Assembly (NCBI GenBank): GCA_008632985.1
Contig: QPGO01000056.1
Location: forward strand, 338,406 to 402,405
Direction of reading: 5' to 3'
Length of the DNA stretch: 64,000 nt
Source: Psammoneis japonica
Taxonomy: Eukaryota
Numbering within the stretch: position 1 is the stretch's first letter; every line of letters begins with the position of its first letter. A program made the translations under genes and the position numbers. This document shows positions 1-64,000 of the stretch, piece by piece. The notes below the pieces were generated by a model. That model saw only the letters and a program-made list of their open reading frames with translations, searched no databases and had not been told where the DNA came from.

Positions 1-715
1 AACAGTCTCTCCTTGCATGGCAGACGCATTTCTCGGATCTGATCGACTCGGAACTTGCATTCTCTGCAACCATGACTTGGTGTAGATTTTTTGATGATGC
101 AGTGTGCTTGAGAGCCCTTGATCCTTGGGTGCTTGGAACAGACCGTGTTGGAGCGAATCCTCTTGTCTGGCAGACGAAAAACAGCGTTCCATCTTGAGGC
201 ACTGCTCGGCTTGAGCTTCTTCCGCTCGGAAATCGATTCCAGCAGAACTGGTGCGATTCATTCCTGTTTGTAGAAGAATTTGCAAAGGCACATCAGTTAA
301 AATTTTCATTTTCCGTGCTTTTTACCTTCTGTGGTGTGCACACACAATGCACTGTGCTCGAAGAACGAGTGTGGGACGAAAGTAGAACAGTGTGCGAAAA
401 GTGGAAATTATGAGATTAAATTTTGCTCTGTGATTTTTGGTTTCTCCGAACGAGTTCTCAATGGCCTAAAGCTTCTGCACTGCTTCTACAGACAAAAGGC
501 CTTTCGGAGAATGTGTTCGTGACAACAGATTGTCCGGATGCGATTGCTGTTGACACGTAAGATGTCAACATCGTCAATCGATCGTATTTGCAATTCTCGA
601 CATCCGATCAACTCTGTGTGATCGTTCTGTCCTTTGTACGCATCCACGACTGTGGTGCGATTGACACACAAATAACATGCAATCATAAATGTGCACACAA
701 CAGTCGCACACTGCA
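1..715 (-). mobile_element. Ty3/Gypsy LTR retrotransposon, 5' part (5' LTR plus degraded gag start), truncated by the window edge
   Basis: The reverse complement of 348-715 aligns along its length to the LTR at 41567-41945. It is followed by the same post-LTR sequence (ttgtgtgtgcacaccacagaaggtaa vs ttgtgtatacacaccacagaaggtaa) and a disrupted gag-like reading (LLESISERKKLKP..QCLKMERCF vs PLESNSEPKSLKPSQCLKMEQRF). Confidence 0.9.
348..715 (-). repeat. 5' LTR (368 bp, TGCA...TGCA) of the Gypsy copy at the window start
   Basis: Homologous to the 379-bp LTRs at 41567 and 46363, with TG...CA ends. Confidence 0.9.
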
Positions 716-857
716 CACTTTTTCGACATCCGGGTCTTTTTTTGGGTGCTGAAACTTACGTTCAAAGCTGCACGCGCACTTGTGGTACAAGAGTTACGTA
801 CGTGCTGTCCATGCATTGGTTTTTCCACGGCGCTTTTTCCATGCGGCACATGGCATG

Positions 858-3800
858 GGGGATTCCCATCTGTGAAGTGATAATTTGGTGTGAAGTGATC
901 ACGCAGAATTGCACGTGTTTTTTCTAGTGCTGAAATTCTGATCAGAACGCCACCAACTTGTGTTGTGATTCATCAATGGATGCAATCATTTGCACACAAA
1001 TCGCCACAGTAAAGTTTGCCGTCGAGTTCCAGATGAGAGAAAAATCTTTCCCTCCATCTCATCTCTCATCTCTCCTCCACTCAACTTCTCGCCGAGAAAA
1101 AAAAAAACGCAAAAACCGTCATCCCGACTCGTCGACCATGGCGCTCTAGTTCCGAGCCTGTCGTCCATGCTGTTGAGCTGTTGACACACCATTCGATTCG
1201 CAAGAGTCGACACAACAAGAGACTGTGCGCAGCATGTGCGCAATGCATTGTCGCACTGTTTTTTTCTGTCATTGTCGACGTACATCCCAGCAGTGATTTT
1301 GCATGAGGTTTGAATTTTACAATGATCCGTGTGCAACAATCAGCTCGACATAAATTTCAAAAACACCCACAACATAAAGCAGACTTGTCTTACAACAGCA
1401 ATCTGTGTTTGCCACCATGTGCATTCATCCTCAGTGTGTTGACACTGTCACTGCTCCTTCACCGGCGGATGCATTCAAACCTTTGGAAAAAGCCAAGGCG
1501 AAAGGTAGAGCAAAGGGAACGAAATGCCCACGTGTGGAGAAGTCTTTGAAGTTTCACATTCTTGTGGACTTCTGTGCAAACGGCAATGGAGTTTCTTCAA
1601 GCCATTGCTGCAAGAATGTCCACCCCGAGCACAGCACCCGTTGCAACACCCTGAATCGGGCATGGGGACAAAGTGGACTTCGTCGTCTTCATCAAGAAAG
1701 TGCTTCAGTGGAGAAAGCACAAGAAGCCATTTGCAACTGTTTTGGAGCGAAAGACAAGAAGGCAAAGGAGGCAATCACTGCCTTGCACAAGGGGAATGGA
1801 ATTCTCACTGACGACGAAGAGCAGCATGTTGTTGAAGTTTGCTGCTGGTTGGGTCAGATGGGATGCGGAGTGTCAAAGGACACCATTCTTGATGTTGTGA
1901 ATGACTTGGCCAATGAGTGCATTGATGAGCGTGAAAAACCATCTGTGTCTGATTGTTTTGTGTGCTCCATGCTCCAACGCCATCCAAAGCTGGCAAAACT
2001 AGCTTCAGCTTCAAGTTTGGACCCAATTCGTGCTGAGCAGGGGACGAAAGAGGTTCGGGACGCACATTTTGCAAAGTTGCAGTCTTTTGTGAAGCATCTC
2101 CATGCTGCAGGTAAAATTGATGTTGATTGCATTGAGAAGCTTGAGGCTTTTAGAAAATGCAACATGGATGAAGTTGCAATGGATGCTGCGAAACGCCGCA
2201 AGAAAGTGCCAGTCTTCAAGGAGGTCATGAAGAAGTTGCGCATTTTTCAGAGGACTCCCGAGGGCGACGGCAAGATGAGCCATCATCTCACCATGTGCAT
2301 CACTTCTGGAGCAGATGGCAAGTAAAGGGGTGCTGCTTTGTTTGTTGTCACTGCCTTGCTCTGGACAATTGTTGAGTGCACTTGCCTTGTGCCCGTCGCC
2401 TCCGCAGGCGTCAACGCAATTCCGTGCCAAGAAATTGAAGGTGCCCCGCCGCCGTTCCTTGTGCATGCCTCCAAATCCAAGAAGAAGACCAATGATTCCA
2501 ACCGCACCAACACTCCAGAAGACGAGACTGCTGTTGGTGAAATGCATCTTGATGGCCTCGCCCCAGCAAATCCAAACCCCAACGCCAAGTTCAGCGACAA
2601 CCTGCACGGCTTTGATGTCCGGACAACCACAAACGGAAGCATGGAAAAAGATGCAATGCTCGACTTGCCATTCATCACTGCAAGAACCTTCCCAAGGGTC
2701 AAGGAAAAACAAGTTACGCGACAGACGAGGAACGAATGAGGAACGCCACGACACTGCTGCTCGACGGACACGCCTCGCGTTGGTGCTGCACCGCTCTCAA
2801 GCATTTCTGGGATCACAATGTCTGTTGTTTTTTTCTGCCATCTCACACATCCATCTGGATGCAACCAAACGATTGAGGTGTCAACAAACGCCTGCGTGCC
2901 AAGATCGAGGAAGAGGCAAAGAGGGTTGGGTGCAAGAGCGGTCTTGCAAAAGGAGTGCGGTTGACAAACCGAGTTTTTCTCGCTGCTTGGAAGGCTTGCC
3001 TTGAAGCCGAGAAGGCTGAGCTCTTGTCCAAAGGAAGCAATGTCTGCACAAGCGCCTGGAAGGAAACCGGACTCGAGCCAATCAACCCCGATTGCGTGGC
3101 GTGGACGGAAGTGCCAGAGACAATGGGGGCCGCACACGACCTCGCCCTGGAATCGCAAAGAGAAAAGGAGGAACAAGCACAAGAGCAACAAAAACAAGAG
3201 TGGGAAATTGAGCCTCTCCCACCTGACAAACAAAACGCCATTGTTGAGAGATCGAGAAATGTTCTCTGCGAGGGCCACAACGACGACGACGATGACCCAC
3301 TGCTTCACGACTTGGATGTCGCAATGCCAGTGGCAAAATCAATGTTGGCAAAATGGAGAGAGGACACAGAGTGCAAGAGTGAGAAACCAGAGCCAACAAG
3401 CGAACAAGAAGAACTGGCCATGGAACTTGTGCAATGTCACTCACCTGATGCGGCGTCACTGCCTTGTGCGGCGGAAAAGACGAAAGAGGAGCGCGCGCGA
3501 GATTGGACTGCAACGGTGCTGCGTTCGGTGCGACCTTTCATTGATGACATTGAAGTGCAATTTTTTGATCCCACTGGTGCAACCTTTGATGGAGTTGTTG
3601 CGCTCCAAACCAATCCGAATTGGAAGCTGGTGCTGGAAGATGGGGCTGAGCGCATCGTGACCGAGAGCGATTTGTTGGATGCTTCTAAGTGCCGCGTCGA
3701 CCCCAAAAAATTTCTGAAAGATCCTGCTGCAACCAGAAGAGAGCATCTCCACAAAAGGCAACAGAGACAGAGAGAGCAGACAGCATCAATCGAGGCTGCA

Positions 3801-4934
3801 AAATGGAAAGCTTCGGAACAGCGCGACGAAATGTTTGAAGTCTGGTGTCAACAACAACAAGGGAAAACAATTGGTGAGAGCTTTTCTTTTCAGGATTTTT
3901 TGCAATTGAAAGAGATGATTGAGAAACCACATGTCGCCATGATTGATGGCTTCGAAGTGGAGGTGAACAGCAGTGGTGCAAACGCCATCAGTGTCGCAAC
4001 GCGTGCAACGATGTCGAACGTGCTTGCCGGTTTCAAGCGAAAGGATGCGGTTGCCGGCGCAGCGGGTGCTTCCGAACAACCGCCCAAAAAGAAGAGACGT
4101 GGAGCCGTTGTCAAGACAGCACGAGGTGAGAATGCAATTGTTGCCATGCGCCGCACCAAGACAAGGATGATCGAGGTGGGCGAGGCAGAGCAAACGAAAC
4201 TGAAGGCTGACATCGCCAAGCAATCGAAAGCGCTCGATGAGTTTGATGCACTTCGCTCCAGTGCGCCTCAGTGCGGTGAGTGCGAGACGTTGAAGGGAGA
4301 TGAGCTGAAGATCTTGGTTCGGCTGGTTTGTCCAAACGCCGGTTTGTCAGGGAAGAGCATTGAAGTAAAGAAGAAGGAGCTTAAAGAGCGGAACGTTACA
4401 AAAGAACATCTCGACTCTATTTGCGTTCAGAAAAGGCGCGATCTCGATGACCTCAAATCAAAGCTTCAGAACTCTTCGGCTGACAGTGATTCTGACGACG
4501 AAGACCAAGAAGAATTGCTTTAAATGTATAATCGTCTACATCATCTAGACACTTTGTGTGAATTTTCATGAACGGTTGTGATGAGAACCAAATTTCGTTA
4601 ACTTTTTGTGAGGAGAAATGTGTCAAGTGATTTTTGATAAACGACCTCGCAACGAAAGAATGTTGCACTTATGGAAGAGACGTCCGTTACGTAACGGCTA
4701 TTTTCTTATCGTAACGGTTGATTGTGCGGTGCCAGCTGTCTGCTCAACCCACTTGTACCAAGCCACGTAGAAAAATCGCGTAGCGGAAATCCAGTGGATG
4801 ATAATTCTGTAGAAAGCTACGATGCCTGGTATGATAAAAGGAGAGTTGGGTCGAGTGATCATCAATCTATTTTATACCAGAGGCTACGTGATTCTACGCC
4901 TGACGTCATAATCACTTCAGAGATGGGAATCCCC
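858..4934 (+). mobile_element. pogo/Fot1-like (Tc1-mariner superfamily) DNA transposon, about 4.08 kb
   Basis: 24-bp TIRs GGGGATTCCCATCT(G/C)TGAAGTGAT at 858-881 and 4911-4934 (23/24 match). Right flank is TA (4935-4936), left flank TG (856-857). Contains DDE_1-type motifs. The element is absent from the paralogous segment at 19140-20640. Confidence 0.9.
1405..4523 (+). pseudogene. DDE_1 (pogo-like) transposase with long C-terminal extension, hypermutated and frameshifted
   Basis: Motifs KCNMDE (canonical YNxDE), CITSGADG, PPFLVH, TTNGSM, LLLDGHASR and LPSHTSIWMQPND lie in different frames, with an in-frame TGA near 2874. Probable intron 2318-2407. No Tyr in the 306-aa or 522-aa ORFs. Confidence 0.85.
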
Positions 4935-5437
4935 TATGTGTGTCGCGTATCGTGTCGCGTGGTGAAAATCTTGCCACACGGGCGCCGTGAGACAACGGTG
5001 CGGTCTTTTTCGTGGTTTTCCCTTGTGCGATCGCGTGTGTTTCATCCTTGTGCGAGGCGGCGGTGCGGTCCGACAAGTGCCTGCTCCATTATCATAGAGC
5101 AGTGGGAAACTGAGTGCCGTTTTTTTTTTCTCTTGTGCCTCTCCATCCATTGGATGAGAGTCAAGGAGAAGAAGACAACATTGCACCAATCATTCAAGAC
5201 GTCACCAACGACAAGTCTGACAGGGTATCGATCCATTGGACGACATTGTCACCGAAACGGAGGGCAAGACGAAATCGGCAAGTTTTCTTGTGAACCTTGT
5301 CGCAATTGTCGCGGAGCTCGACAAATTCTACAGCATTCTCCCGTTTTGTCGGGGATCCGACTTGCATTTGCATTATTGTTTCCATTCAGCAAAAAGAGCG
5401 GTTCTCGTCTCCTTGAGACGTGTAATTTGCAGAGACA

Positions 5438-10674: not shown

Positions 10675-11749
10675 TGTCGATATACAGTAGCTCTCTGGCT
10701 GATGCCTTATGGTTTACAGTACGTGAAAGGTGAAAGCGGCCGATATGTTTCGTCGTTGCGATTTCGCGATAAGTCATTATTGTGGAATGATGTTTTTATT
10801 GAACAGTACTATGTACTCATCGACAACGAGAACAGCGCGCCCAGCATTCGGACAACCGAGCAAATGAATCGCATCTTCAATCTCGCATCCATCATCGCAA
10901 CACACGATGAACACAGGATGAACAACGATGTTACGGCAGGTTGCCTTCTCCACGTCTAAACATGTCAGTGGGGCACGATGGAGTCCTGTGGCAAAAATGC
11001 CAAGTCTTTCCCTGGCGACTGTTCAACGTTGTGCGAAGGAACACGATCATGAATGTTTGGATGCCAGAGCTCTGTTTTCTGCAGTTGTCAGTGTCCGATC
11101 ATGCTTTGCCATTCAAGTTCTTACATGTGACAATGCAGCACCAGTTGAGATGGACTTGGATGTTGTCTCTCAGGAGAACAATCTGTTGTGGCTGTTCTGT
11201 GTCTCATCAGAAATGGCCAGCCAGTGGCTGTGTGGAGCATCCAACGCCTCTCATTTGCAAATCTGCTGTTTGTCTCACATTGAATGCATTGTGTGGCTCA
11301 TCATCTGTGTTTCATGGAGAAGAAGTGTTGGGTCATCAGTTGAAGTTGGTGAAAATGGGCACTGGCAAGAAACTGAGTCTCCACCACAGCACCGGAGAAA
11401 TCAACGAGAAAGAGCAACTGGGTGATTTGGCAGCCAAGCTGTTGGCAAACAAGGCACTTTTTGATGTCAGCTGCACACCCTCAACTTATATGTGGACATC
11501 CACATTCTTTCTTGTGCTGGTGTCACCCTTCTCAGGCAGCGTCTTGTTGGCTCAAACAAGCCAATTTTGTCCACATTTGTCAATGGCACAGCCTTGTCGC
11601 AGCATGATGAGAGCAAAATGTTCATCAGTGGAAAACAACAAGTGTTGCAGCCTCATGGTCTGTGTGCTGGTTGTCATTTCTCATAATTTTCCATTGTCGC
11701 AGAAAATTTTCTGCACAGGCTCCAGTGCAAATTCTGCATGGATTCGTCG

Positions 11750-41945: not shown

Positions 41946-41981
41946 TTGTGTATACACACCACAGAAGGTAATAAGTTCAAG

Positions 41982-46336: not shown

Positions 46337-46362
46337 CTCTAATGTGCAATTAGGGAGGCGAA

Positions 46363-50424: not shown

Positions 50425-53400
50425 CAAGGTCGCCATCAGCAGTGGAGGCCAACAGCAGGCCAACAGCAGGGTTCTTGAAGGGGCAAGATGGCAGGGCAGG
50501 AGGCAACGACATGCAGAGCAAGATCAACACCACTGGAGAAAACCACACACTGGCAATGTTGCTCTGCACTCTGCATCCCAGGAAAGCTCACCAGACAAAT
50601 GGGGTGCGACAACCTGAGGGGACTCAATGTTGAAAGAAGGTGGATGCTTGGCAGGTCCACAGTCTGCCAAGGTTGCCTGGGCTCTTTAAATCTTTCCCTG
50701 GCATGTTTTAAAGCATGTTGGAAGGTTTCTAAAGCCACACCAGGCCAGCTGCATTGTGGCGGTCTTGTGGCTCCTGGAGTTGTGAGCCTTTGCTTTTGCC
50801 AAACTGAGCTTGGTTTTTTGTCATTGTCCACCCTGTCTCCAATGGCTGGCGCCCCAGTGGCCCCAAATTTGGGACCTTTTCTCTGTCTTTCAACTCTCTT
50901 GTGACCCAGCTTTCAACTCATCCACCAGGGACTCACAGCTGAAAATGTTCAGACACACTGCTTCCCACTGATTTTTGACATTTTTCAGGGTGCACGCGTG
51001 CACACAGAATGGGTGTTGCTGGGTGCAGCAATGAGTCCTCAGGGTGTTGCTGGGTGCAGCAATGAGTCCTCAAGCAATGCTGAAAGGGCAAACTCTTCCA
51101 ATGTGGCATGTGAATGTTGTCCACTTTAGATCTGTGTAAAAAATGTTTTGGAGTGCAACAACAGATGGGCAAACATTGCCACACAAAATCATGACAATCA
51201 GGTTGGCTGCAGCACAGCAAACATTTTGTTTGACATTCCAGTCAACAAAGGTCATCATTTTTGGAAATCTCAGTTGATGCCATCACAGCAAGCATCACAT
51301 CAAGCTTTGTTCTGCCAGCAGCAGTGGCAGTGGCAGATTGTTGAGTTCAAAAGCTGTCTGTTTTGGTTGGCTTTTGCAAGATTTCAATGTGAAGCATTTG
51401 TCCTGTCATTTTGTGGTGTTCACCCTGTGCATGGCAACAAGCTCTTGCACAGATTTGTGCTGGAGCTTGTGTGCATCCTGACAAACTCATGAGCCCTTGT
51501 TGCCACCTGCACTCCTCACCAAAGCTTCGCTGCCTGCTGCTCTTGCTTTGGCAGCACTTCCCCTCTTGCAGCTTTGGCACGGGTCTCTCATGCACCAATG
51601 TGCACTCAGTTGCTCTCCTCCCTGCTGCACTTGTCCAATTCTTTAACTTGCAAGGCTTTGACAAATTGCCAATGCATGAGATTTGTGCAATGTGGGTCAT
51701 CAATGACCACAAGCTGTGAATTGGAGCAGCTTTGAACTTGTTTGTGCATTCCCTGGTCATCTGCCACATGTCAGCCCACTGCTTCTCCCCACACTTCCTC
51801 AGCTTTTTTTGTTCATGAGGATCAGGGTTGGGGTCAGTGCCAGGGCCAGGGCCGCATTGTCCCAAACTGTTTCTGAACAAGCTGGTCATCACTGCCCTCA
51901 TTGGGGCCAACCAGCTGATGAAAAGCTGAAAAATCTGGCTCAACAGTGGCTCCCTTGAGCTTGCAGACTTTCATGAGGATGCGCCCATTTCAGGCTTTCT
52001 GCAACATGTCACAAAATCTGGCTGCACTTGCTGAGGCTGGTGCCTGCCAGATGCCAGATGCAGCCATGGGCCGCAGCTGCTCCAGCACCTGGTTGCTCAA
52101 TTCAAGAACACAACAATGTGACAAGTTCATGGCTCAGCTCAGAAAATTGGTTGAGTGCTCCAGAGATCATTTTTTGTTGTTTGCAAAGCAATTGTGGGGC
52201 ACTTGGGCACTGCAGCCATGCAACAAAAGACATCTTTCATGACCCCAAGATTGCCTCATCTGTTGCTCATGTTGTTGCATGCAACAATGTTGGCATTGCA
52301 ACAATCTAAAATCACCAACAGCAGGGCACCCAAAACTTGTGGGAACACAAGTTCAATGGGTCACAGCAGCTCAGAGAGACTGCCCACTCTGGAAGAGCCA
52401 GTGCAGAGTGCCCACGCATTTTGCTTGCCATGGGTCAAAAACCAACACACTGAGGATCATCTGCCTTTGAGCTTCTGCTCATTTTGCCCTGTGCAGTGTC
52501 CAGGGGGGCGGGCACCAGCAGGTCATGCGCACCTGTCAGGGAAGGCAAAAACAGAAACCACAGATGGGTGTGAGCCACAAGGCTGGCAGTTGAGGTTGGG
52601 GCTCAATGCTCCAACATGGGAACCCTTGTTGCTGTCATCAACATGCCCAGACCTCTCCAATGACAGCAGCACACCATTTTTTTTGGCAATCTTGACAGCA
52701 GCCAATGCAGGCTGTGCATTGCAGCTGGCTTCTAAAGCTCCAAAACCTCCACCTCACTTGACAAAGTGGTCATGCAGTGGCCACGCTTGTGCCCTCTTTT
52801 CTCTTGCCCCACATCTCTCTCAAAAGGTCAGAAAAACCTTGCATGTGGCAGACAATGCAGTGCAAAGCAATGGCATGAGGGAGGCAGTTGAGTGAACAAA
52901 CACATGTTTCTCATGTCAAAAAAGAGCACTTTGCAACAAGTGGGTGGAGAGCTGTTGCCTGCCACCTGCCATTGCCAGCTGTTTTTTGATGGCTTGCATG
53001 CATGAGCTGGTTGCAGCAGTGCTGCACTGACTCCTCTTTTTGTCTCACCCTCACATGCCCTGTGCATCTTTGTGTGAAAATGCCAGCTGAAAAGTCAACG
53101 AAGTTGTGCAGCACTTTGCCACACAGACAAGTGCAAAAATGAAAAAGTGTTGAGCCTGCAAGTTTGAGCCCAGCCCCTTTCCAAACAAACCAAAATGAGC
53201 AAATGCCAAACATGGCACACCAGCAAATGAAAAACTTTTGAACAAACAAAAAGCAAAGACATGCTGCTCCCTGGGGATCTGCTGTGTTTTTCAAGCTGCT
53301 TGTTTGGTGCAGAATGGGTGTTGCAATGTGTGGCACAGAATTTGTGCTGCAATGTGCAGCAATGAGCTCCCAAGTGATGTTGGTGCCACAAACCCTGCCA

Positions 53401-54329
53401 TTGCAGCATGCAAATGCTGTCCATTTTGGACATCTGTGTCAAAACAAAAAAGTTTTGGCATGCAAAAAATTTTGCCATCAACACAGCACAAGAGTTTCTC
53501 AAAGATCACAACAACTGGCTCAGCTGCAGGATCAGAGGCCACAATGTGGTGGTTTCCACTTTCCTCTGCAAATTTTTTGACGTGCATTGTCAACATTGTC
53601 AACAAGCAAAATTTGAAAACTGCCGGCAACAGTGCTCAACAGATTGCAGTTGTTTTTTGTGTTTCATCTGATGTCTCATTGGCTTTTCTTGCACAAGCTT
53701 CAATCAAATGCGTGCAATGTTCAACTCAATTGGAGTTGACATCTGTGTTTTGTGATGCACAGTTTGGTTTCCTTTTGATGATCATCAACCTGAACTTGGT
53801 TTCCACTTTGGTCCTCCTCAACTCACGTGCATGTGTTTGCACGTGTGCAGTCTGCTTCATGCACACACATGACCCACCCTCCATTTAAATTCCTCTTCAT
53901 GCTTCGCAGATTTTTGCGGCCCCTTGGTGCACCGTGTTTTCAGTGTTTTTTCACATGCACAATTTTCTGCACACTTCACAATGGTGCACCCTCTCCCCAA
54001 AAATCAAAAAGCAAGAGCATGTGCTGTTGTGATTGACGTGGATTCTATGTTTGGTCACAAATCTGCAAATCGACAACCGGCCATGGTGGTGAAAGACTTC
54101 ACCCCATTGGCCGATGACAGCAGCTCAATGCATGGTGAAACCTGCTGTCCTTCTGGTTGGTCAAGACAGGTTTTGATTTGGGAACAGCTTGAGTTTTGTG
54201 ATCATGAGTGTGCTGTCATGAATCTGCTGCATCCAGAATGCTGAGCTGCTGGTGTGTTGTTGTGTGCATGGTTGTTGTGTGCATGCACGTCACAAACTTG
54301 CTTTTCTGCAGCATTGGGACAATCGCGCG

Positions 54330-54915
54330 TGTCAGAGTTTTGCATCCAGAATCATCACAAGTCACCACAAATGACACTCTTCAAACAAAAGGCATGCACA
54401 AAAAGAGGTTCATTGGTTTTTGATGCACTCGCTGACAGTGCATCTGTCTTCTCCAATTTCTGTGTCCAGATCAAGAAAGACTGCAGGTGGTGCTTGTTCC
54501 TGCAGCTCTCAGAATCACACGCATGAAAAGTTCTTTGCCACATGTGACACTCCTCAAAAAAGGCATGCACAAAAGAGCTTCATTGGTTTTTGATGCATTC
54601 ACTTGTGTCACGTCCATCTTCTCCAATTTTTGTCCAGATCCAGAAAGACTGCAGAGGCAGAGAGTGGGGGGGCAACCCATTGGAGGTTGCCTGAGTTGTT
54701 GAGCTCATTTTTAAAGGCTTCCCAAGTCTCTCTGCTGTTTCTGGTCCATGCTCTAAATGTGCCATTGATGAACCATTCACAGCACAGGTGTGGGGTGAAC
54801 TCAGTCATTGCCATGTGACTTTGTCGTTTGTGCTGCACCTTGCACAGTGTGGTGCACATGCAGGCAATGCTTGTTCCCACAGCCATTCCAGCAAGTGCAT
54901 TCTGTGGCACTCAAA
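54330..54915 (-). mobile_element. Second Penelope-like RT fragment with an internal duplication of about 170 bp
   Basis: MAVGTSIACMCTTLCK..WFING..WTRNS..W..FKNELNNSG.L.W aligns to ORF 46792..47439. About 54345-54486 is repeated at about 54508-54654. Confidence 0.8.
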
Positions 54916-55018
54916 ATGTTTTTTGCTTGCTCACATGCTTTCTTTCTGTGTTTTCTTTGAGTTGCAGGGGTGGAGCTGGGTGCTCAACGTCTTGCACCTT
55001 GCACCGGTGTCCACATTG

Positions 55019-55510
55019 CTCCAGAATCAGTGGCACCAGATGAACCGATGCACCGGCAAGTGTGTGCTGCCATTCATGCCAGCTCATCTGTGTTGTGCTC
55101 TCACAATGTGCTCTGTGCTTTTTGGCAACAAACAAGGTGGATCACAGCAACAGCACTTCTGCTGCAAACTCACCTGCTCCAGAATCAGCAGCAACAGATG
55201 CACTGGCAAGTCCATGTTGCCGTTCCTGTGGGTCATGTTGGTTCATCTGTGCCACACTCTCACAACATGTTCCACTCTTTTTGGCAATGAATGAGGTGGA
55301 ATGGAGCAGCGGCACTTCAAATCATGGAACAGCAGCTCCTGCTACAAACTCACCTGTTCCAGAATCAGTGGTGCTGGATGCACCGGCAAGTCCATGTTGC
55401 CATTCATGTTGGTGGTGTTGGTTCATCCACGCTGCACTCTCACAACACATTTTGCACTTTTTTGGCAATGAACAAGGAAGGTGGCTGCCAGCAGCGGCAC
55501 TTCAAGAAAG
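55019..55510. repeat. Three tandem units of about 160-180 bp
   Basis: tccagaatcag..gatgcac(c/t)ggcaagt..ctctcacaa..tttttggcaa recurs at about 55020, 55178 and 55358. Confidence 0.85.
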
Positions 55511-58500
55511 CAAGCTGCAACTGCTGCTGCAAACTCTGGGGTGTTGTCTCCATCAGCATCATTCAATTAAAATGCAAACAACAAAACGGAATGTTTGTGG
55601 TGCAGTGCAAATGATTTTAATTTACAGAATTCGCAGGGACAGAGGGTGGGCACTTTCATGGGGAAAACGTGTCCCTGTTTCACAGTGAAACATGTTTTCC
55701 TCATGGGGAGGGGGGGTCTGATCCCACAGCACAAAAATGTTCATCTGTCACAGTTGACATGTTGTTGCCAGCTGCACAACTGTCAAGGTTTGAAACAATG
55801 GAATTTTGCCTTAGATTTAAAAAAATGACTGTGAGAAAGGTGGTCTGGATCACCACAATGCGTGTGCTCTGATGCGCCAGCAACAAATGTTGTTGCTCAT
55901 TGTTGAGGCCAACCAGTTGCTGTTGTTGGAGCTCAGTTGATGCTGTTGCAATGAGCATCACACCACACCTTGTTCCTCAAGAGCAGATCTTCTGAATTCA
56001 AAACCCACCTGTCTTCCATTTGCCAAAACTTTGCACACCTTGGAAATCCAGCAAGTTGCTGGCATTTGTGAGATGTCAACATTGTCTTGCCAAAAGCCAG
56101 GCCTTCCTTCATGAAACCCAGCACAAAGTTTGTCTGTGATTGCACCATGCATGGCAGCAGGCTCTGATGCAGATTTGTGCCAGAGCTTGTGCATCCTGAC
56201 AGACTCACAAACCTTTCCTGCTCTCAGCACCTCACCACAGCCTTGCTGCGTGTCATTTGCCCCAAGCACTTTCTTTTTTCTGCAACTGTCATCAACATCA
56301 TGAGTGTTGTCATGAAGAAACACACACACAAAATGACCTTGAGCCACTTGTCTGTTGCAAAGCACCACCAAGAAACCCAGCTGATCTGAAGCCAGAAAGC
56401 AGAGGAGCAAGATTGAGCAACACACCCAAACAGCCATTGGAGCAACCCTGAGACAGATCTCTTCTTTTGGATTCCTTGTCTTTTAGATTCCTTGGGCCAA
56501 AAGCAGAAAGCATGCTGCAAGTGCATTGAAAAAAATGTGTGATGAGGGGGTGCCATTTTTGTTGTTGTTGGACATTCTGAAGAAAGGTGTTTGCTCTTTC
56601 TTGGACAAACCAGGGTGTGATTTGTCAGTGGTGCTGACCTGAGCAGCAGGCATTTGCCACACCAATGTTTCAATCTGTCTGGATGGAGAGTGCAGACCAC
56701 CAACAGAGGGGAACTTGTGGCCCACCCTCTTTTCCATTGTGTGGAAAGTGATGCTGGAAAGTGACATGGCAGACCTGACTTGGGCTGTGGCTGGCATGCC
56801 TTTCACAGACAAGTGCTTTGTCCAGCATCTGAAAATTCTTTCTTTCCAAATTTGTTTGCAAACACATCAAGTGTGTGAAGTGACAGGTTGACACATGGCA
56901 GATGATGACCAGGGAAGGTGTGAACAGATGCAAAGCTGCTCTGGTTCGCACAGCTTGTCATCCATGACTTGCGCCACACAGACTTCATGAGCTGGCAGTT
57001 TGCCAAAGCCTTGCAAGTCAAAAATTGGGTGAGTTTGACAGTGGGAGAGTGGCAAAGTGCGTGTGGACATGCAAGAGACTTGCATCAAAGTTTTCCTCCT
57101 CCTCCTTCTCTGAGCCATCTTCAGAGGCCCAAAGCTGCGCCTTTCCAACCAACAAACCCCACAGATCACCAGCACTTTGGGCAATGTCATGGGCCCCAAG
57201 TGACAACCTCCCTGAAATGCCATGGCCTGCATTGGGTCAGATGCAGAAAGAAAAAACATTCATCAGGTGGGGAAGATGCAACAGGGGGGCAACTCACCAT
57301 GCTGGTGACAAAGCTGCAGCATTTGTTGTTTCCATTTGCAGACTGCTTGACCAACCCAGTCAACTTGAAGCTGTTGAAAACTGTCCACAGCAAACAACCA
57401 TCCAGCTGCTGCTTCTTTCCCAACTGTTTCCTGACAAGCTGCCAAGCTGTTCATTGCCATTCTTGTTGGGGCAAATTTTCCAACAAAATGCTAAAAATTC
57501 TGACTCAAAGTGGCCGCTGCACTTGCAGACTTTGGTGTCACCAAGTGCGCACCACGATTTCCCATGAAACCCATTTCAGCTTTTCAAGAACATGTGGCAG
57601 ATGACAGCACAACAAATCTGGGGCCATGCTCATGGAGACTGGCATCTGCCAGACAGTTAAAAGCTGTTCTTCTGGCACCTGGTTGCTTCACTCAATGACA
57701 TGTGACAAGTTTCACCAGCCCAGCTCAGAAAATTGATTTGAAGATTTTTGTTCTTGTTCCACAATTGAAAATTGTGGGGCACTCAGATGGCACAATTCCA
57801 AGATTGTTCCAGCTGTCACTCATGTCATCACATGCAATGATTTTGGTGCAGCAACAATCTTGGGTGTCCAGCAGCAGCAGGAGAGTTGCTGACCACTGGG
57901 CTTGGACAAAAAAACTCATGGAAATGCTTTTCAAGGGTTGCAGTGGCTCAGTGGGGAGACAATCCACAATGGATCAAAAATGAATGTGCCAAGGATGTGT
58001 TTTACAGACAAGCTCAAAGCTTCCTTCCTTTCTCTTGTGAGTTTCACCTTCACCTCCAATGCTGTGCAAAAGTGGGCCTCTGTTCTGGATGTGCTGGGCA
58101 GTGGCCAGGGCACCAGCAAATCAGGAATGCCTGCTGGGGGGAGCAAAAAAGGGAGCCAAACAAGTGGCAGCTGCAAGGCAGTTGAAGTTGAAGCTCCGTG
58201 CTCCAATGTGAAGATTTGTGCTGCCATCAATGCCAGAAGACCACATGCACACACACACTGGATCTCTCAAAACAGCGCTGTTTTCTTGGCAACCTTGGTG
58301 GCAGTCAATGCTGGCTCCTGGCTGCATTGCAGCTGGCTTTTGAAGCTCTGAGACCTCTGCTCAATTGGCAAGGTTGTGTTTGAGCAGACAAAGACACTGC
58401 ACTTTCTTTTGTGTGTGCACCTGCCAACTGTGCTCTTGATCAAATGGTTGTTTGTGCCCTCCTTTTATCTCTCTTGCACTGTCTCCTCCCTCAGAGAGTG

Positions 58501-59169
58501 CAGGGTTGGAAGAACCTTGCACAGCAGATGTCACAATGTTGGGCGACAATGCAAAACAGGCAGCAAAAAAAAGCACATTTCTCATGTCAAAAGGAGCCCT
58601 CCGTGACAAGCAGGTGGAGCTGCTGCTGTGCCATCTGCCACTGTGTTGACTCATCCATGCCAGTGGTGTGGAGTGTGGATGAGCAGGTTGCAACTGCACT
58701 GGAGGCTTCTTTCTTGACAACCATCATCACACACCAAGCCCAAACCATGCCCTGTGCACTCTTGCATGAAAGTGCCAGTTGAAAAGTCAACAAAGTTGTG
58801 CTGCACTTTGCAGCACAGTGTGCCAGAGAAACAAGGGCAGTCAATTTGAGATTGAATCTTGTCAACCCCCCCACCCCTGTCACAACAACCCCCAAGAGAG
58901 TGTCAATGCTCAAGCACACAAACAAAAACTTTCATGTTTCCTGCGCATTTTTTTTGTGCTTCCTGCATGTTTTTTGGGTGCCGGTCTGAGACACATCTCT
59001 GCAGAGCTTTGCACCTCAGCCAGCCAAAAGTCTGCAAGGCACCAGCATCAACCAGTGGTCATTGTGTTAAAATTGATTGTCGGCCCCACCAAAAGCAAAG
59101 AAAAAAAGCAATGAAACATGAAATGTGCCCATGTGTTGCTTGTTGCATGTGCGTGCTGTGCTGCGGTGG

Positions 59170-61200
59170 TTGATCATCTGTGTGTCCTCCTGTCTGTGTG
59201 GTGGTTCCGTTGCCGCACGCTGCAACAGAGCAAGTCGTCCATCCGCACATGTGGAATGCGATGCAACACTCCGAGTGATGAAGCAACACATCTGATGAAC
59301 CTCCCGACTTTGACCACTCTTCCCATGTTCACTCCACTCAAATTGCCGCAAATGTCAATGATCTTCACACTGCCTGTGCCCGGGTCACTTCCTCCCTTCC
59401 TGTTGCATCTCTCACTCCCAAATGCATGGAGCTCATCAAACAGCTCTGTCCACCATGCAAACACCTGCCCCTGTCTGCTGCACCATCTGCCTGACACCAC
59501 CAATCCACCCCCACCCCCCTGCACTTCACCACCGATGACCTCCAAAAAGCACTGGCCAAATGTCAGCCAGGCAAAGCACCTGGAGCGCCTTTGCTGATTC
59601 TGCTGACCTTCTCAAGGCCTGTGCTCTCCACTGCTGCTCTACGTCAACATCCTCTTCACACTCCCACCGGCTTGCTTTCAAATGCCTGCTTGACCTCATC
59701 CTCACAGCAGATCTTCCCACTTCCATCAAACCTGCCTTCTCACCCAACTGTTTCCTTGCCCTGCACAAGGGCTCATCCAACCTTTCCAAACTTTGAACAG
59801 TCGGCATTGGCACAGCTCTGCAGAGAATCAACTGCACCCTTGTTGTGTGTCTCCTTGCTGCCACCTTCGCTGCCAACCTCCTCCTCTCTGGCCAATTTGG
59901 CATTGGTGCCAAAGGCAGCCTCAACTGCCTCATGGACACCACTTGCACCAATGTTGAATGCTTCTTTGAACCAGACTCCGCACCTGCAAAAGCTCTCCTC
60001 CTTCTCAACCTTTCTAATTGTTTCAACGAATGCTCTCGCGACACTTGCCACGACACCCTTGCAACCTCTGATGAATGCCGTGCCATCGTGCCCTTTTTTA
60101 ACCTGCTTCACCAAGACCCCAACACTTGCTGGTGTCAAGACCATCAACTGCAATGGGCCTCCTTTTCTCAACCTGAGGGATTCACCCAAGGCTGCCCCCT
60201 CAGCCCTGCTTTCTCCTGCCTCATTCTCACCCGTGCATTCACCCCCATCAACGATGAGTCACATCACCAGCTTTCTCCCCAATCCAAGTCTGCTGCTTCA
60301 TCACACATTGATGACACCCATGTCTTCCTCCCCTTTTCCCAGCTCCCCTGGTTTCTCAAATGGCTTTCCACCTGCGGCCCCCAATTTGGCATCAAGCTCA
60401 ACACTTCCAAAACAAAAATTCTCACATCTGCCACCGGCACTCCCCCCATCAACCGCCTCCCACCCACCAATGCCAAGGCTCTCTCCAAAGCCCTCACCTT
60501 CCTCAACCCCAACAACGACTCACACATCAAGCCCAAAATCACCACGGGCATCTGCTTCCTTGGCCAACCCATTGGCTCATTCGTCTTTGCCATGAACTTC
60601 CCACATGACAAAGCCACCTCTTTTTGCCACAGACCTTCATCAACTCACAACCCATCTCACCGACAAGCAAACACAAAGTGCCCTCTTCCGCAAATGTTCT
60701 GTCCCTTCCATTGCCCACCTCCTGTCAGCTGATGCATGCTGCAACCTCATGCACTCCAGTGACCTTCTGCCCCCTTTCCAATGGACATCTCCCTTCACCA
60801 ACAAGATCAGCGGCCACTCCCTGTGCTTCCCATCCCACCTCACCCAACACACCAACCCTTTCCCTTCTGCTGCCAAGCTCATTGCTGGCCTCCCCATTGC
60901 TTTGGGTGGCATTGGCCATCCCAACATCTCCGCTGTCGCCACCCCAGCTCTCACAACCTCCCTCACCAGATCCATCTGACACACCAAACATGGCATCCCA
61001 CTCACCGGTGGCAATGTTTTCCATCTCCCTTCAAGCCACTCTGCCACTCTTGGTTCATGGTCCAACCCATGTTCCACCCTTTCCCTCTGTTGCATTTTCT
61101 GCTGCTGTGCCCCCTGCCCTTCTCCGATTTGACTCTCCTCTTCCTTCACCTGACCAGAGACAACCAGCTTGTTCACAGCAGAGTCACAACTTGAGACAAA
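59170..61200 (+). mobile_element. Non-LTR retrotransposon (CRE/SLACS-like RT), decayed
   Basis: LALHK..KL*TVGIGTALQR, QFGIG, NLSNCFN, EGFTQGCPLSP, SHIDD, GIKLNTSKT. C-rich sense strand. Confidence 0.85.
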
Positions 61201-64000
61201 TTTGTTGCACTGGCATCATCACTTGCTTGCTTGCATGTTGCTGGTTTCTTGATTGACCTTGGCCTTGTCAATGGCCCACTCAGCCTCATGAGCAGAAGAG
61301 CAGTGGGCTTGTGCACATCTCAGAGTCTGGCCTGGGCTGAACATCTTGTTCTCCACAGCTTCAAAGCACCTTTCCCAGAGCAAGGCACAAGCCTTGATCA
61401 ACATGCTCTCATGGGTTTTGGTCTTGAGCTGCTCATTTTGCCTGTCATGTGCTGGTCTTCAAACTGGGCTTGTTGACATTCACGTCACATGGAGCAAGAG
61501 TCTTCAACCCTGCCTGCGCCAATGTCATTGCCATGCTCAAAGGCCTTTTTGATGTGATTGACAATGAACTCAGTGGCAACCTCACAGCCTGCATGCTGGC
61601 TGCCACCCAAGAGCACAGCTGGCAAACAGGGTCACTGCAGGTGCTCTTCTTGGTGTGCTTGACCTGCATCTCCTCTTCAAGGAACACCTTCCTTGGCTTC
61701 TGTTTGCTGTTTCTGCCTCTCCTTCTCATGATGGTTTGGCAAAGCAGGACAAATCTCTTTAGCTCCACAAGGCAAATCTCTTGTGCTTTTGGCCTGCTTT
61801 GCAGTGCTCAGAATTGTGCTGCTGGGTCCTTGCTCTGTTTTGGCTACAGAAATTGCCCCTTCTTCTTGTGGCCATTGTCAAGCCACTTTCAGTGATGAGG
61901 CCATTCCTGAGGGGAAAACAGGCAACATTGCAAATGCACGTGCTTCACAAGAGTTAAAAGGGAATTGTGTTGCTGCTTCCTTGAGCAGTTTGAGTTCATG
62001 TGTGGTTCTTGGACAAACACATCAGAGTGCAACGTGATGAGCATGTTCTAAAAAGTCTGTCTCTCAGTGCGTTTGAAGCACAAAATCTCACATTGAACAT
62101 TTCAGTGAAATTCGATGCCAACAATGACAGCAAAAGATGGCTCCTGAGGACTTCTAATTTGCAGACTGCAACACAACCAACACCTTGTGTCAACTCCTTT
62201 GTGCTGTCCACAAGTGATGACAAAAGAAGCTTGCCACCAACCAGCTGTGTGATTGCTCACTGCCCTCTTGTTTCCTTTTCTCTTCAGGAGAGAGTTTTTT
62301 TTTGGCCAGCTGTCTGGGTCAATGAAGTGGTGAGATGCCATGCTTGTCATCACTTTGATCTGGCCCACTGTGAAAGAAAGCAAGCTGTCCTTTTGCTCCA
62401 ATTCGCAGCAGACCCTCACATGCTCTCTGCCCAATGATGCCAGGAGACAGTTGACAAAGTGGTTGACAGATCCACAGATGAGATGTGCTTGCAGCAATTT
62501 GGGTTTGCAGACGAACCATGAGCAAAGTCAGAGGAGGATCTCCAGAGCTGACCTCTCAAAGATCATGCAGAAATGTGCAGAATTCAGCACTTGAAGTGAT
62601 CAGAAACCAAGCCCTTCACACATGTGACAAGTCATCGGAAAGACTCATTGCAAGCATGAGCATTGTGAAAAGACTTGGGGAATTCGGAGAAACATTCTGA
62701 AGAACTCTGAGGAACATGGAACATGGACAGGACACAAACATGGACAGACACACATGCCCGTGGCACTCTCTTGCACACAAGAACTCACAGTGGATCAATG
62801 GACCTCTTTTGCAGGCCATTTGTTTGACCAGAACATGATCCAGATTGTTGGGGGAGACACCATCTGACCACTTTTGCAAGCAAAGCAGTTTGGAAGTGGT
62901 GTCAAAAAAGTTGTTGGTCACTCTTGTGGAGTGCTTGGATTGTCTCCTGAGGCAATTGCAGACTCTAAGATGAGCTCAGTTGGTGCAGGAGAAAGAGCCA
63001 GTCACAGAGAAAGCACCACCTGAAGTCACAAAAACTGATGCAAAAGAAGGAGTGGGGTCAACTCCTGGAGCAGAGGACTCTCCGATGGCACGAGTCACAG
63101 TGCCGCAGGTCCTCTCAATTGCCCCAGCCGCATGTGTGTGCAAATCAGGAAGCCAGCGCATGTTGTCTGCTGCCAACTCCTGGCAATGGACTTTCACAGA
63201 TGACCCCAGAGCAACCATTGCCCGCTGGTCCTGTTGGTGTTGGCAGCTGTGATGTGCTGACACAAGCAAGCTCTTGCACAGTCTGGAGTCACCAGCAATC
63301 TCCTGTGTCCTGGTGTGCACTGCGGCATTTCACAGCCCCTTCTTTTTCCTTCAACCAGCAGTTGTTCGATGGGAAGCATTCCTTGCAAGGGCTGCAATGA
63401 ATGCCGCAGGAATGCTGACCAGTGCTCTTGACCAGCAACAAAGTGATTTGTCAGGGTGGCAGCACCGCCCAGCCCTTCTGTGCACTTGTCACCACCGCTG
63501 GGACCAGCAGCTGGGTTGAGTTGCACAATGCATGGGCATGACGGGACTTGCCCAAATGCAGGTTCCACTTGAGGAGACTCCAAATCTCAAGAAGAACGAA
63601 GACCCACTTTGGCAAGGCGGCAAGTTTGCTGCATTGTCAAGATTGCGTTGTCTTTGAGGTGGGGCTCATGACTGCACATTGTTTTGCCTTTTGTTGCAAA
63701 TGTCATCACTGCAGTGCAGCAAAACAATGGGGAGCCCTCTCCACTTGTCCAGCCTGGGGTTCGGGTTCAGCACCCGGCTGTTCTCTTTTGACTGGATGCT
63801 TCCACCGTGTGTGCTTGACCATCAGGAACAGCAGAGTCCCATCACTTGCTCACCATGTCGTGCAACACAGACAATGTCAAGTGGCACTTTTGCTTGACAA
63901 CCTTTGGCTCAGGGAGAGAAATGCATGTGGCAGCAATCCCGTCATGCCAAGTTCTTTCCTTGGTGGACCACCTGGTGGGATGCGGGGGATGCATCCAGGG

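What the first reader, a model, noticed from the sequence alone, without database searches (positions are those of the whole stretch)
1..64000. Repeat-targeted TpA->TpG/CpA hypermutation: an apparent reverse-RIP (A:T->G:C) genome-defence system
Seen: TA is nearly absent from the transposon blocks (about 1-4360, 10950-17450, 28900-32800, 36960-41566, 46742-64000) but normal in host genes. Conserved Tyr codons become TGY (Cys) or CAY (His) in five unrelated element classes. Gypsy: GYYH->GCCH (44166), YxDD->CVDD (44331). Copia: YVDD->CVDD (38114-38125), ALYG->ALCR, NAYL->NTHL. LINE: YIDD->HIDD (60304). pogo: YNMDE->CNMDE. Penelope: MYxN->MHSN. Leu->Pro/Ser (RELNK->REPNK) and Val->Ala changes fit the same rule. 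Established: fungal RIP and 5mC deamination are C->T and create rather than remove TpA; ADAR or APOBEC editing of retro-intermediates is strand-asymmetric and would not be inherited by DNA transposons. Inference: an enzyme or lesion acts on adenines in TpA on both strands of chromosomal repeat DNA. I do not know a described eukaryotic pathway that does this.
Basis: partly seen in the sequence, partly recalled or inferred. Interest (0 to 1): 0.96.

Follow-up and report, generated by a model that had tools for sequence, protein, structure and literature searches.

The report
TpA-erasing hypermutation of diatom transposons
In this diatom genome, transposon DNA has had almost every TA step rewritten to TG or CA by a DNA-level mutation process that spares neighbouring host genes; the same signature has so far been described only in a 2026 preprint on an unrelated alga.

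Summary
Six blocks (35.5 kb, 55% of the window) hold 110 TA dinucleotides, with TA observed/expected 0.04-0.07. The host-gene DNA between them has 0.29-0.63, and borders are sharp to within 250 bp or less.

The loss is polarised and happened in chromosomal DNA:
- 7 of 8 differences between the two LTRs of a young Gypsy element are TA versus TG/CA.
- 8 of 9 conserved Tyr codons in its 5' tract are now Cys/His; 0 of 15 downstream are.
- 16 of 20 conserved Tyr codons in a Copia element are Cys/His.
- A pogo-like DNA transposon is also stripped.
- Repeat copies inside the blocks differ by TG/CA double changes.

TA loss is separable from CpG decay and comes before it. Contigs built from a public read set reproduce a TA-free block, so a base-calling artefact is unlikely.

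New here: surviving TAs follow a per-strand trinucleotide rule (TAT≥TAC>TAG>TAA).

A 2026 bioRxiv preprint on Bigelowiella natans measured the same TpA-only A/T→G/C hypermutation in integrated viruses. I therefore read this as a new, far more extreme variant in a diatom, not an undescribed kind.

The enzyme is unknown. An adenine deaminase is the leading guess. Dependence on repeats is not shown.

The parts
6..269 (.). Short TA-depleted segment at the window edge (1 TA, o/e 0.06)
   Evidence: HMM segmentation
854..4938 (+). Pogo-like (DDE_1-type) DNA transposon. Candidate 31-nt terminal inverted repeats at 854-884 and 4908-4938; transposase homology spans 1444-4517.
   Evidence: inverted repeat, 90% complementary; 200 homologues, the long ones carry PF03184 DDE_1; tblastn span
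1402..4361 (.). Hypermutated tract inside the pogo-like element: TA o/e 0.04 with CpG kept (0.79). The element's arms are less affected: 854-1401 at 0.21, 4362-4520 at 0.34, 4521-4938 at 0.79.
10963..17459 (.). Old TA-free, CpG-poor block (TA 0.05, CG 0.17). The only anchor is a weak, sub-threshold Mutator-like hit at 13552-14502 (-). Contains tandem units at 11759-12448.
28861..32798 (.). Old TA-free, CpG-poor block (TA 0.05, CG 0.19). Reproduced by an independent 2,475-bp read-set contig covering 28744-31214.
32731..33741 (.). Shoulder next to the block. The window copy carries CA/TG where another copy or allele in the reads carries TA: 16 of 30 listed differences, none the other way within this stretch.
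36966..41584 (-). TA-depleted block holding a Copia pol remnant (37087-39468). Of 20 conserved Tyr codons, 16 are now Cys (7) or His (9).
41567..46743 (+). Young Gypsy LTR retrotransposon, with LTRs at 41567-41947 and 46363-46743 (373 of 381 positions identical). It is inserted into an older TA-free block. An empty-site allele is present in the reads.
41817..44470 (.). Hypermutated tract of the young Gypsy. TA o/e is 0.07-0.47 here against about 1.0 from 44567 on; CpG is kept. 8 of 9 conserved Tyr codons are Cys/His here and 0 of 15 downstream.
46738..63994 (.). 17-kb TA-free, CpG-poor relic block (TA 0.04, CG 0.20). The only Pfam anchor is RVT_1 at 59797-60729 (+), right at the threshold.

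Best explanation
What it is. A heritable, DNA-level hypermutation process in this pennate diatom converts TpA to TpG or CpA (A:T->G:C transitions) within transposon DNA. It acts after integration, on both strands, in kilobase tracts with sharp borders.

Properties seen here (shown):
- It works much faster than CpG-methylation decay and independently of it.
- It goes almost to completion, wiping out Tyr codons and leaving TA-free, TG/CA-rich relics.
- Each strand is hit independently, with a trinucleotide preference T-A-T >= T-A-C > T-A-G > T-A-A. Read on the other strand, this is A-T-A >= G-T-A > C-T-A > T-T-A.
- It is the same kind of process as the TpA-only hypermutation measured in Bigelowiella natans.

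Mechanism (inferred, not shown): the most likely chemistry is enzymatic deamination of adenine to hypoxanthine, which is read as G, by a deaminase recruited to silenced or foreign DNA. What directs it to transposons is unknown.

My odds: about 0.9 that the phenomenon is real and DNA-level; about 0.4 that adenine deamination is the chemistry.
For: Post-integration and TA-specific. The two LTRs of one Gypsy element differ at 8 of 381 positions, and 7 of those are TA versus TG/CA. That is 7 events per 66 TA site-copies, against 1 event per 630 other bases.

Polarity.
- Gypsy: of 24 Tyr columns conserved in at least 80% of 120 relatives, the window has 15 Y, 6 C, 2 H and 1 F. All 8 Cys/His fall within 43710-44331.
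- No relative has more than 3 Cys/His in 23 such columns.
- Copia: of 20 conserved Tyr, 7 are C, 9 H, 2 F, 1 A and 1 Y. Relatives have at most 1 in 28.
- No Tyr->Ser/Asn/Asp was seen, so the changes are transitions.

In situ, both strands.
- Repeat pairs inside the depleted blocks differ mainly by adjacent CA/TG double changes, for example 20 in one 450-bp pair. A host-like duplicate has 3.
- Both Tyr->Cys and Tyr->His occur on the same coding strand.
- TG and CA counts are near equal.

Not limited to retroelements. A pogo-like DDE_1 element has TA o/e 0.04.

Separate from CpG decay. CpG o/e is 0.79-0.9 in the two young tracts and 0.17-0.34 in the old blocks.

Controls.
- Host CDC20 keeps 4 of 5 conserved Tyr and has none changed to Cys/His.
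- A host-like duplicate shows an ordinary spectrum: of 100 differences, 35 are transversions and 16 are TA-type.
- For 33 metagenomic Gypsy relatives, PR-RT TA o/e has median 0.79 and minimum 0.55; the window has 0.26.

Reads.
- A 2,475-bp contig from public run X1 (depth 65.6) matches the TA-free block 28744-31214 apart from 4 substitutions and 4 indels.
- In 32731-33741, 16 of 30 listed differences are window CA/TG against TA in the reads, with none opposite in that stretch.

Context rule. The 109 surviving TAs fit an additive per-strand hazard model: by the base 3' of the target A, T 2.67, C 2.12, G 1.02, A 0.28. Chi-square is 4.5 with 6 df, against 216 with 9 df for uniform survival. Product tetranucleotides agree in direction in 5 of 6 asymmetric classes.

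Precedent. The B. natans mutation-accumulation lines gave 231 of 302 single-nucleotide mutations in two integrated viral regions. Of these, 230 of 231 were A->G or T->C, all on TpA.
Against: Limits of the data:
- No enzyme or lesion is seen. TA is palindromic, so an attack on A cannot be told from an attack on T.
- The genome is not held, so there is no genome-wide test, no family consensus and no deaminase search.
- The library type of X1 is not on record, and X1 comes from the same sample as the assembly, so the two-platform test was not done.
- Only 40 of 377 read differences were displayed. One displayed case goes the other way: window TA against read CA at 32507.

Weak points in my analyses:
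- The context model uses host DNA as a stand-in for the ancestral tetranucleotide make-up.
- Most depleted DNA has no recognisable transposon domain. Calling all of it transposon is an inference from a few anchors.

No sign elsewhere: relatives in metagenomes show no such tracts (1 of 3,563 windows). That sample is biased towards intact copies.

Against the ADAT guess: the natural ADAT2/3 substrates, as I recall them, have G, C or A after A34, whereas T is the best 3' neighbour here.
Confidence: 0.6

Rival explanations
1. Thymine, not adenine, is the target. A TET/JBP-type hydroxylase marks T in TpA within transposons (5hmU, perhaps oxidised further). The modified base occasionally pairs with G, giving T->C on either strand.
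For: The sequence signature is identical under this reading, because TA is palindromic. In dinoflagellates 5hmU is enriched on repeats and silences transposons, and older work reported a TA/TC preference in Crypthecodinium (passages of PMC11572971). Dinoflagellates, diatoms and chlorarachniophytes all belong to the SAR group.
Against: Base-resolution mapping in Breviolum found no sequence motif for 5hmU (passage of PMC11071213). As far as I recall, 5hmU itself is only weakly miscoding. No such modification is known to me in diatoms. Nothing in the window bears on it.
Confidence: 0.15
2. Error-prone repair synthesis in silenced chromatin, by a polymerase eta-like enzyme making A->G errors at WA motifs, wears TA away.
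For: As I recall, polymerase eta errors in antibody hypermutation favour A in a TA/AA context and occur in kilobase tracts downstream of promoters. That resembles the 5'-biased tracts of 2.7-3 kb seen in two elements.
Against: - AA is not depleted: its o/e is 1.32 in the blocks against 1.16 outside.
- The changes are almost only transitions: 24 Tyr->Cys/His against 3 Tyr->Phe and 0 Ser/Asn/Asp.
- CpGs are intact in the young tracts, so no C-deamination trigger is visible.
Confidence: 0.07
3. Sequencing or assembly artefact: modified DNA in transposons is mis-called as TG/CA.
For: Transposon DNA is probably heavily modified. The platforms behind the assembly and behind run X1 are not on record.
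Against: - k=31 contigs of run X1 hold 97% of the sampled words of 9000-18999.
- They reproduce a TA-free block with only 4 substitutions, at CpG/CpA sites. They are therefore not a copy of the assembly, and noisy long reads would not give such contigs.
- The same reads carry TA in another copy of 32731-33741.
- The two LTRs, the tract border inside one element and the strict trinucleotide rule are hard to produce by mis-calling.
Confidence: 0.03
4. Editing of RNA or cDNA intermediates before integration (ADAR- or APOBEC-like), inherited by new copies.
For: As I recall, ADAR prefers a 5' U. Part of the interior damage of the young Gypsy could have been inherited from a damaged master copy or a recombinant template.
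Against: - The two LTRs differ, so the change came after integration.
- Tandem units diverge by independent CA/TG choices.
- Both A->G and T->C occur on the sense strand.
- A DNA transposon is affected.
- ADARs are a metazoan family (stated in the Discussion of the preprint).
Confidence: 0.02
5. Intrinsic composition or selection: these elements were always TA-poor, for example through foreign origin or avoidance of a TA-cutting nuclease.
For: The gag regions of related Gypsy elements are somewhat TA-poor (median o/e 0.54).
Against: - The unmutated half of the same Gypsy has TA o/e about 1.0.
- Conserved catalytic Tyr residues are destroyed, which selection on the element would not allow.
- Unrelated element types share the state.
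Confidence: 0.01

Closest known systems
TpA-specific hypermutation of integrated viral DNA in Bigelowiella natans (Mettrop et al., bioRxiv 10.64898/2026.01.13.699255; I read the abstract, Results and Discussion)
   Same: - Only A->G and T->C, and only at TpA.
- Both strands are hit.
- It is confined to foreign or selfish DNA next to a normal genome.
- It produces TpA-poor, CpA+TpG-rich clusters that include RT and DDE domains.
- The enzyme is unknown.
   Different: - Host: a diatom (stramenopile) rather than a chlorarachniophyte (rhizarian).
- Targets: ordinary transposons of several classes rather than giant-virus and virophage insertions.
- Extent: near saturation here (TA o/e 0.04-0.07), against 0.45 reported for the viral region there.
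- Evidence: here it is inferred from sequence; there it was measured in mutation-accumulation lines.
- The trinucleotide rule and tract structure described here are not in the preprint's main text.
Repeat-induced point mutation (RIP) of Neurospora and other fungi
   Same: Both are dinucleotide-specific transition hypermutations of chromosomal transposon DNA, acting on both strands in tracts. They inactivate elements and leave a skewed dinucleotide signature.
   Different: The direction is opposite: RIP turns CpA into TpA and creates TA, whereas here TpA is destroyed and CpA/TpG created. Dependence on repeats, premeiotic timing and a C5-methyltransferase-like enzyme are not shown here.
AID/APOBEC and ADAR editing of retroelements and viruses
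   Same: Deamination-type transition clusters used against selfish nucleic acids. AID-type tracts begin near promoters, a pattern that two elements here resemble.
   Different: Those act on C (AID/APOBEC) or on RNA (ADAR). They are strand-asymmetric, and APOBEC/ADAR changes are made before integration. Here both strands of integrated DNA are hit, including a DNA transposon.
CpG decay by 5-methylcytosine deamination in methylated transposons
   Same: It also feeds TG/CA, and it is present in the older blocks of this window (CpG o/e 0.17-0.34; 11 of 29 conserved Copia Arg codons changed in the CpG way).
   Different: It is a different substrate and it is slower. The two young tracts have lost TA but kept CpG.

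Membership tests
Bigelowiella-type TpA hypermutation of foreign DNA | Mutations are A->G / T->C transitions at TpA only | tested here: met
   - 7 of 8 LTR differences are TA-type.
- 24 conserved Tyr codons changed to Cys/His, against 3 to Phe and none to Ser/Asn/Asp.
- 16 of 30 listed read differences are TA-type, all in one direction within 32731-33741.
Bigelowiella-type TpA hypermutation of foreign DNA | Both strands are affected (TpG and CpA products) | tested here: met
   TG and CA counts are near equal in every block. Tyr->Cys and Tyr->His occur on one coding strand.
Bigelowiella-type TpA hypermutation of foreign DNA | Confined to foreign or selfish DNA while the rest of the genome mutates normally | tested here: met
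   Sharp block borders. The CDC20 control and a host-like duplicate are ordinary.
Bigelowiella-type TpA hypermutation of foreign DNA | Directly measured rate about 1000-fold above background, and active only in some lines | not testable with these tools
   This needs mutation-accumulation or pedigree sequencing. The only available figure is an indirect lower bound from one LTR pair, about 33-fold per base.
Fungal RIP | C->T at CpA, creating TpA | tested here: not met
   The direction is the reverse.
Fungal RIP | Triggered by sequence duplication; the mutated tract equals the duplicated segment | tested here: inconclusive
   The Gypsy family has roughly 100-200 copies by read depth, yet the 3' half of this copy is untouched. 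Without the genome, partner copies cannot be mapped.
Fungal RIP | RID/DIM-2-type C5-methyltransferase and premeiotic timing | not testable with these tools
   No genome is held.
ADAR/APOBEC editing of retro-intermediates | Made before integration, one strand only, retroelements only | tested here: not met
   The LTRs differ, both strands are hit, and a DDE_1 DNA transposon is affected.
TadA/ADAT-family adenine deaminase as the agent | A deaminase gene of this family whose presence tracks the signature, and inosine in the target DNA | not testable with these tools
   No genome is held. The only hint is a fact I recall: ADAT/TadA deaminate A34, which always follows U33.

The most novel reading that the evidence does not exclude
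Diatoms and chlorarachniophytes share an old, regulated genome-defence enzyme that edits A:T to G:C in double-stranded chromosomal DNA at T-A-Y. It would be a natural counterpart of engineered adenine base editors. The enzyme is guided to transposons and viruses, and it works in tracts of about 3 kb that start near the element's promoter, much as antibody hypermutation starts near the transcription start. In both young elements here, the tract covers the 5' part and stops before the 3' end.
Probability: 0.25. Interest if true: 0.95.

Novelty: new variant of a known kind. Interest (0 to 1): 0.82.

Why it matters
- **A possible natural A:T->G:C editor.** I know of no identified natural enzyme system that makes A:T->G:C changes in chromosomal DNA at this scale; adenine base editors had to be evolved in the laboratory. 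A second, independent lineage with an extreme form of the signature makes the agent findable by comparative genomics. A transformable diatom relative would make it testable.
- **An unusual mutation bias.** This is a GC-raising process, the reverse of the usual bias, and a mirror image of RIP.
- **Practical consequences.** It destroys the protein signal of transposons: 183 ORFs of at least 90 aa from the blocks gave 1 Pfam hit above the gathering score. It also removes TAA/TAG stops, so TA-free relics yield long false ORFs on both strands and will mislead gene and repeat annotation.

Tried and rejected
- **Whole genome.** Not held, so there was no genome-wide profile, no family consensus and no search for deaminase, TET/JBP or 6mA genes.
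- **RNA runs.** No RNA holder was listed. Run X2 covers only a few stretches and X3 none.
- **Pfam on depleted blocks.** 183 ORFs gave only a sub-threshold Mutator hit, a sub-threshold PAC_bac hit and RVT_1 right at threshold.
- **Gypsy remnants.** tblastn with 120 Gypsy relatives found no other Gypsy pol remnant in the window.
- **Pogo-like element.** It has too few conserved Tyr columns (2) for a count.
- **Metagenome relatives.** Of 79 loci kept from 530 confirmed, 1 of 3,563 500-bp windows has TA o/e at or below 0.2. These are the best-scoring, hence intact, copies, so this says little.
- **Public predicted proteins.** Gypsy and Copia relatives show no Tyr->Cys/His excess, with the same bias.
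- **Target-site duplication.** I could not find a clear one for the young Gypsy.
- **Terminal repeats.** The inverted-repeat scan of 10700-17800 gave no convincing terminal repeats.
- **Literature.** Searches for a diatom report found none: diatom / transposable elements / TpA / hypermutation; diatom / repeat-induced point mutation / TpA; TpA-depleted terms; diatom / RIP-like; TpA dinucleotides / CpA / TpG / algae. Subscription journals are not covered.
- **Earlier scan notes.** Nothing relevant turned up.
- **Technical.** A first CDC20 alignment timed out and was rerun with a faster setting.

Full report
**Observation**

Per-kb dinucleotide statistics and a two-state HMM (I chose the emission values) split the window into two kinds of DNA.
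- Six TA-depleted blocks: 6-269, 1402-4361, 10963-17459, 28861-32798, 36966-41584 and 46738-63994. Together they are 35,535 bp with 110 TA (o/e 0.04-0.07).
- Five ordinary segments: 28,412 bp with 1,080 TA (o/e 0.29-0.63).

Borders fall within one 250-bp step. TG and CA are enriched about equally (o/e 1.83 and 1.72). GC is raised and AT lowered, as expected if TAC->TGC, GTA->GCA and ATA->ACA.

**Host**

The ordinary segments carry a PH+START protein gene and a CDC20 gene. The best relatives of CDC20 are pennate diatoms, at about 42% identity. The organism is therefore a diatom whose own proteins are not in the collection. No whole genome is held.

**The loss is a mutation with a direction, made in the chromosome**

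(a) *LTR pair.* A Gypsy element at 41567-46743 has LTRs identical at 373 of 381 positions. Seven of the eight differences are TA in one LTR and TG or CA in the other: six with the change in the 5' LTR and one in the 3' LTR. LTRs are identical at integration, so these changes arose afterwards. That is 7 events per 66 TA site-copies against 1 per 630 other bases.

(b) *Gypsy Tyr codons.* Against 120 Gypsy relatives there are 24 columns with Tyr in at least 80% of relatives.
- The window has 15 Y, 6 C, 2 H and 1 F.
- All eight Cys/His lie in 43710-44331, where only one Tyr (43494) survives. From 44472 on, none of 15 is Cys/His.
- They include GYYH->GCCH and the catalytic Y[IV]DD->CVDD (consensus).
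- No relative has more than 3 Cys/His in 23 columns.

(c) *Copia.* A Copia pol remnant at 37087-39468 (-), with relatives at E=5e-99 carrying PF07727, has 20 conserved Tyr columns.
- They now read 7 C, 9 H, 2 F, 1 A and 1 Y.
- Ala, Asp, Phe, Gly, His, Lys, Leu, Val and Trp are mostly kept.
- Its relatives have at most 1 Cys/His in 28 columns.

(d) *Repeat copies.* Copies that lie inside depleted blocks differ mainly by adjacent CA/TG double changes: 20 in one 450-bp pair, 11 in a 310-bp pair and 8 in a 203-bp pair. A host-like duplicate has 3. This is what independent resolution of one ancestral palindromic step in each copy would give. Ancestral CG could contribute as well.

(e) *Host controls.* These are ordinary.
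- CDC20 keeps 4 of 5 conserved Tyr, with none changed to Cys/His.
- The duplicate 5100-6186 / 19140-20206 differs at 100 sites: 35 transversions, 32 other transitions, 16 TA-type and 17 CpG-type.

**DNA transposon**

ORF 1378-2322 has 200 homologues in an exhaustive search. The long ones carry DDE_1, and homology runs from 1444 to 4517. 31-nt inverted repeats at 854-884 and 4908-4938 frame the element. Its interior has TA o/e 0.04. Together with the LTR result and the presence of both A->G and T->C on one coding strand, this rules out editing of RNA or cDNA intermediates as the cause.

**Separate from CpG decay, and earlier**

The old blocks have CpG o/e 0.17-0.34, and 11 of 29 conserved Copia Arg codons changed in the CpG way. 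The pogo-like tract keeps CpG at 0.79. The Gypsy tract keeps it near 0.9, yet TA is already at 0.04-0.4. TA loss is thus the faster process.

**Tract structure**

- *Young Gypsy.* TA o/e is 0.92 in the first 250 bp of the 5' LTR, 0.47-0.40 over the next 500 bp, and 0.07-0.40 from 42317 to 44566. From 44567 on it is about 1.0.
- *Gypsy relatives.* 33 metagenomic relatives (of 79 loci, those with near full-length matches) have PR-RT TA o/e with median 0.79 and minimum 0.55. The window has 0.26. For gag, 20 relatives have median 0.54 and minimum 0.38, against 0.16 in the window.
- *Pogo-like element.* The values are 0.21 (854-1401), 0.04 (1402-4361), 0.34 (4362-4520) and 0.79 (4521-4938).

In both elements the tract covers the 5' part and the coding region over 2.7-3 kb and stops before the 3' end. 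With two cases this is an observation, not a rule.

The Gypsy sits inside an older depleted block. An empty-site contig at depth 61 joins 41564 to 46744. The family's depth is 6,000-12,500 against about 65 for single-copy DNA. So it is a recent, probably heterozygous insertion of a family with roughly 100-200 copies. A repeat-triggered process should have hit the whole element, so repeat dependence is not shown.

**Sequence rule (new here)**

The 109 TAs that survive in the large blocks are far from random.
- The classes ATAT, GTAC and ATAC/GTAT have 1, 0 and 0 survivors.
- TTAA, CTAA/TTAG and CTAG have 29, 29 and 7.

I fitted a model in which each strand is hit independently, with a hazard set by the base 3' of the target A. 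The fitted hazards are T 2.67, C 2.12, G 1.02 and A 0.28. Chi-square is 4.5 on 6 df, against 216 on 9 df for uniform survival.

The products agree in direction in 5 of 6 asymmetric classes, for example GTAA giving GCAA rather than GTGA. Caveat: host DNA served as the ancestral baseline. The preprint's main text gives no flanking-base rule.

**Artefact check**

One public sample holds the sequence. Run X1 has 97% of the sampled 31-mers of 9000-18999.
- Laid on 28000-47999, a 2,475-bp X1 contig (depth 65.6) covers the TA-free block 28744-31214 with 4 substitutions and 4 indels. Three displayed substitutions there (29343, 29418, 30841) lie at CpG/CpA steps, so the contig is not a copy of the assembly.
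- In 32731-33741, beside a block, 16 of the 30 listed differences are window CA (12) or TG (4) against TA in another copy or allele. None goes the other way in that stretch, and 4 are CpG-type. One opposite case lies at 32507.
- Only 40 of 377 difference rows were shown. The library type is not on record, and the sample is probably the assembly's own. A true two-platform test therefore remains to be done.

**Literature**

A full-text search found bioRxiv 10.64898/2026.01.13.699255; I read the abstract, Results and Discussion. In Bigelowiella natans mutation-accumulation lines:
- 231 of 302 nuclear single-nucleotide mutations fell in two integrated viral regions.
- 230 of those were A->G or T->C, all on TpA, at about 6e-7 per site per generation.
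- Hypermutation was seen only in some lines.
- TpA-poor, CpA+TpG-rich clusters include RT and DDE domains.
- The authors suggest an ADAT2-like adenine deaminase.

The preprint does not mention diatoms. Four further searches found no diatom report. The finding is therefore not a new kind of process. It is a new and much more extreme case in another lineage, aimed at ordinary transposons.

**Mechanism**

Shown:
- a strict TpA target;
- transitions only;
- independent hits on both strands;
- action after integration;
- tracts with sharp borders;
- speed well above CpG decay.

Inferred: an enzyme acting on DNA. Adenine deamination (A->I, read as G) is my first choice at about 0.4.
- For it: TadA/ADAT enzymes act on A34 directly after the invariant U33 (recalled).
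- Against it: the best 3' neighbour here is T, which I do not recall among ADAT substrates.

A thymine-directed modification is the main rival.
- 5hmU marks and silences transposons in dinoflagellates, and an old TA/TC preference was reported (passage of PMC11572971).
- However, no motif was found in Breviolum (passage of PMC11071213).

Polymerase-eta-type repair errors fit poorly, because AA is not depleted and transversions are nearly absent.

What guides the process to transposons is open. It could be repetition, small RNA, chromatin or transcription.

**Verdict**

I rate it a new variant of a recently described kind, of high interest.

Noticed in passing
41564-46744: A read-set contig at depth 61 joins the two flanks of the young Gypsy, so an empty-site allele exists and the insertion is probably heterozygous. 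Family depth of 6,000-12,500 against about 65 suggests roughly 100-200 copies. I found no clear target-site duplication.
   Followed up: partly
45188: Other copies of the Gypsy family carry an extra T here (depth 528 of 1,240). This copy therefore has a 1-bp deletion that shifts the pol frame between ORFs 43137-45197 and 45158-46336.
   Followed up: no
5100-6186 and 19140-20206 (inverted): A 1.1-kb duplicate at 83% identity lies in ordinary-TA DNA. Its substitution spectrum is ordinary. The ORFs there have no Pfam family.
   Followed up: partly
all depleted blocks: With TAA and TAG gone, only TGA stops remain. The blocks yield 183 stop-to-stop ORFs of at least 90 aa on both strands, almost none with a Pfam match. 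This is a trap for gene predictors.
   Followed up: partly
11759-12448; 31155-31826; 55149-55536: Tandem or closely spaced direct repeats, offset by about 240, 361 and 180 bp, lie inside the depleted blocks at 70-77% identity. The copies differ largely by CA/TG swaps.
   Followed up: partly
28000-28661, 32669-34002: Run X2 (30 million letters of contigs) covers only a few stretches, at high depth. In 32731-33741 it carries only the TA-bearing version, and many of its contigs end in unlike sequence. It may be a transcript library in which only the undamaged copy is present. The record does not say.
   Followed up: no
188-670 (-): A diverged relic of the same Gypsy LTR family (80-83% identity to the young LTRs), with many TA->TG/CA differences. 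It lies next to the pogo-like element.
   Followed up: partly
21982-23655 (-): The CDC20 gene is unusually diverged. It matches the majority residue at only 148 of 208 columns conserved among 120 relatives, and its best identity is about 42%.
   Followed up: no
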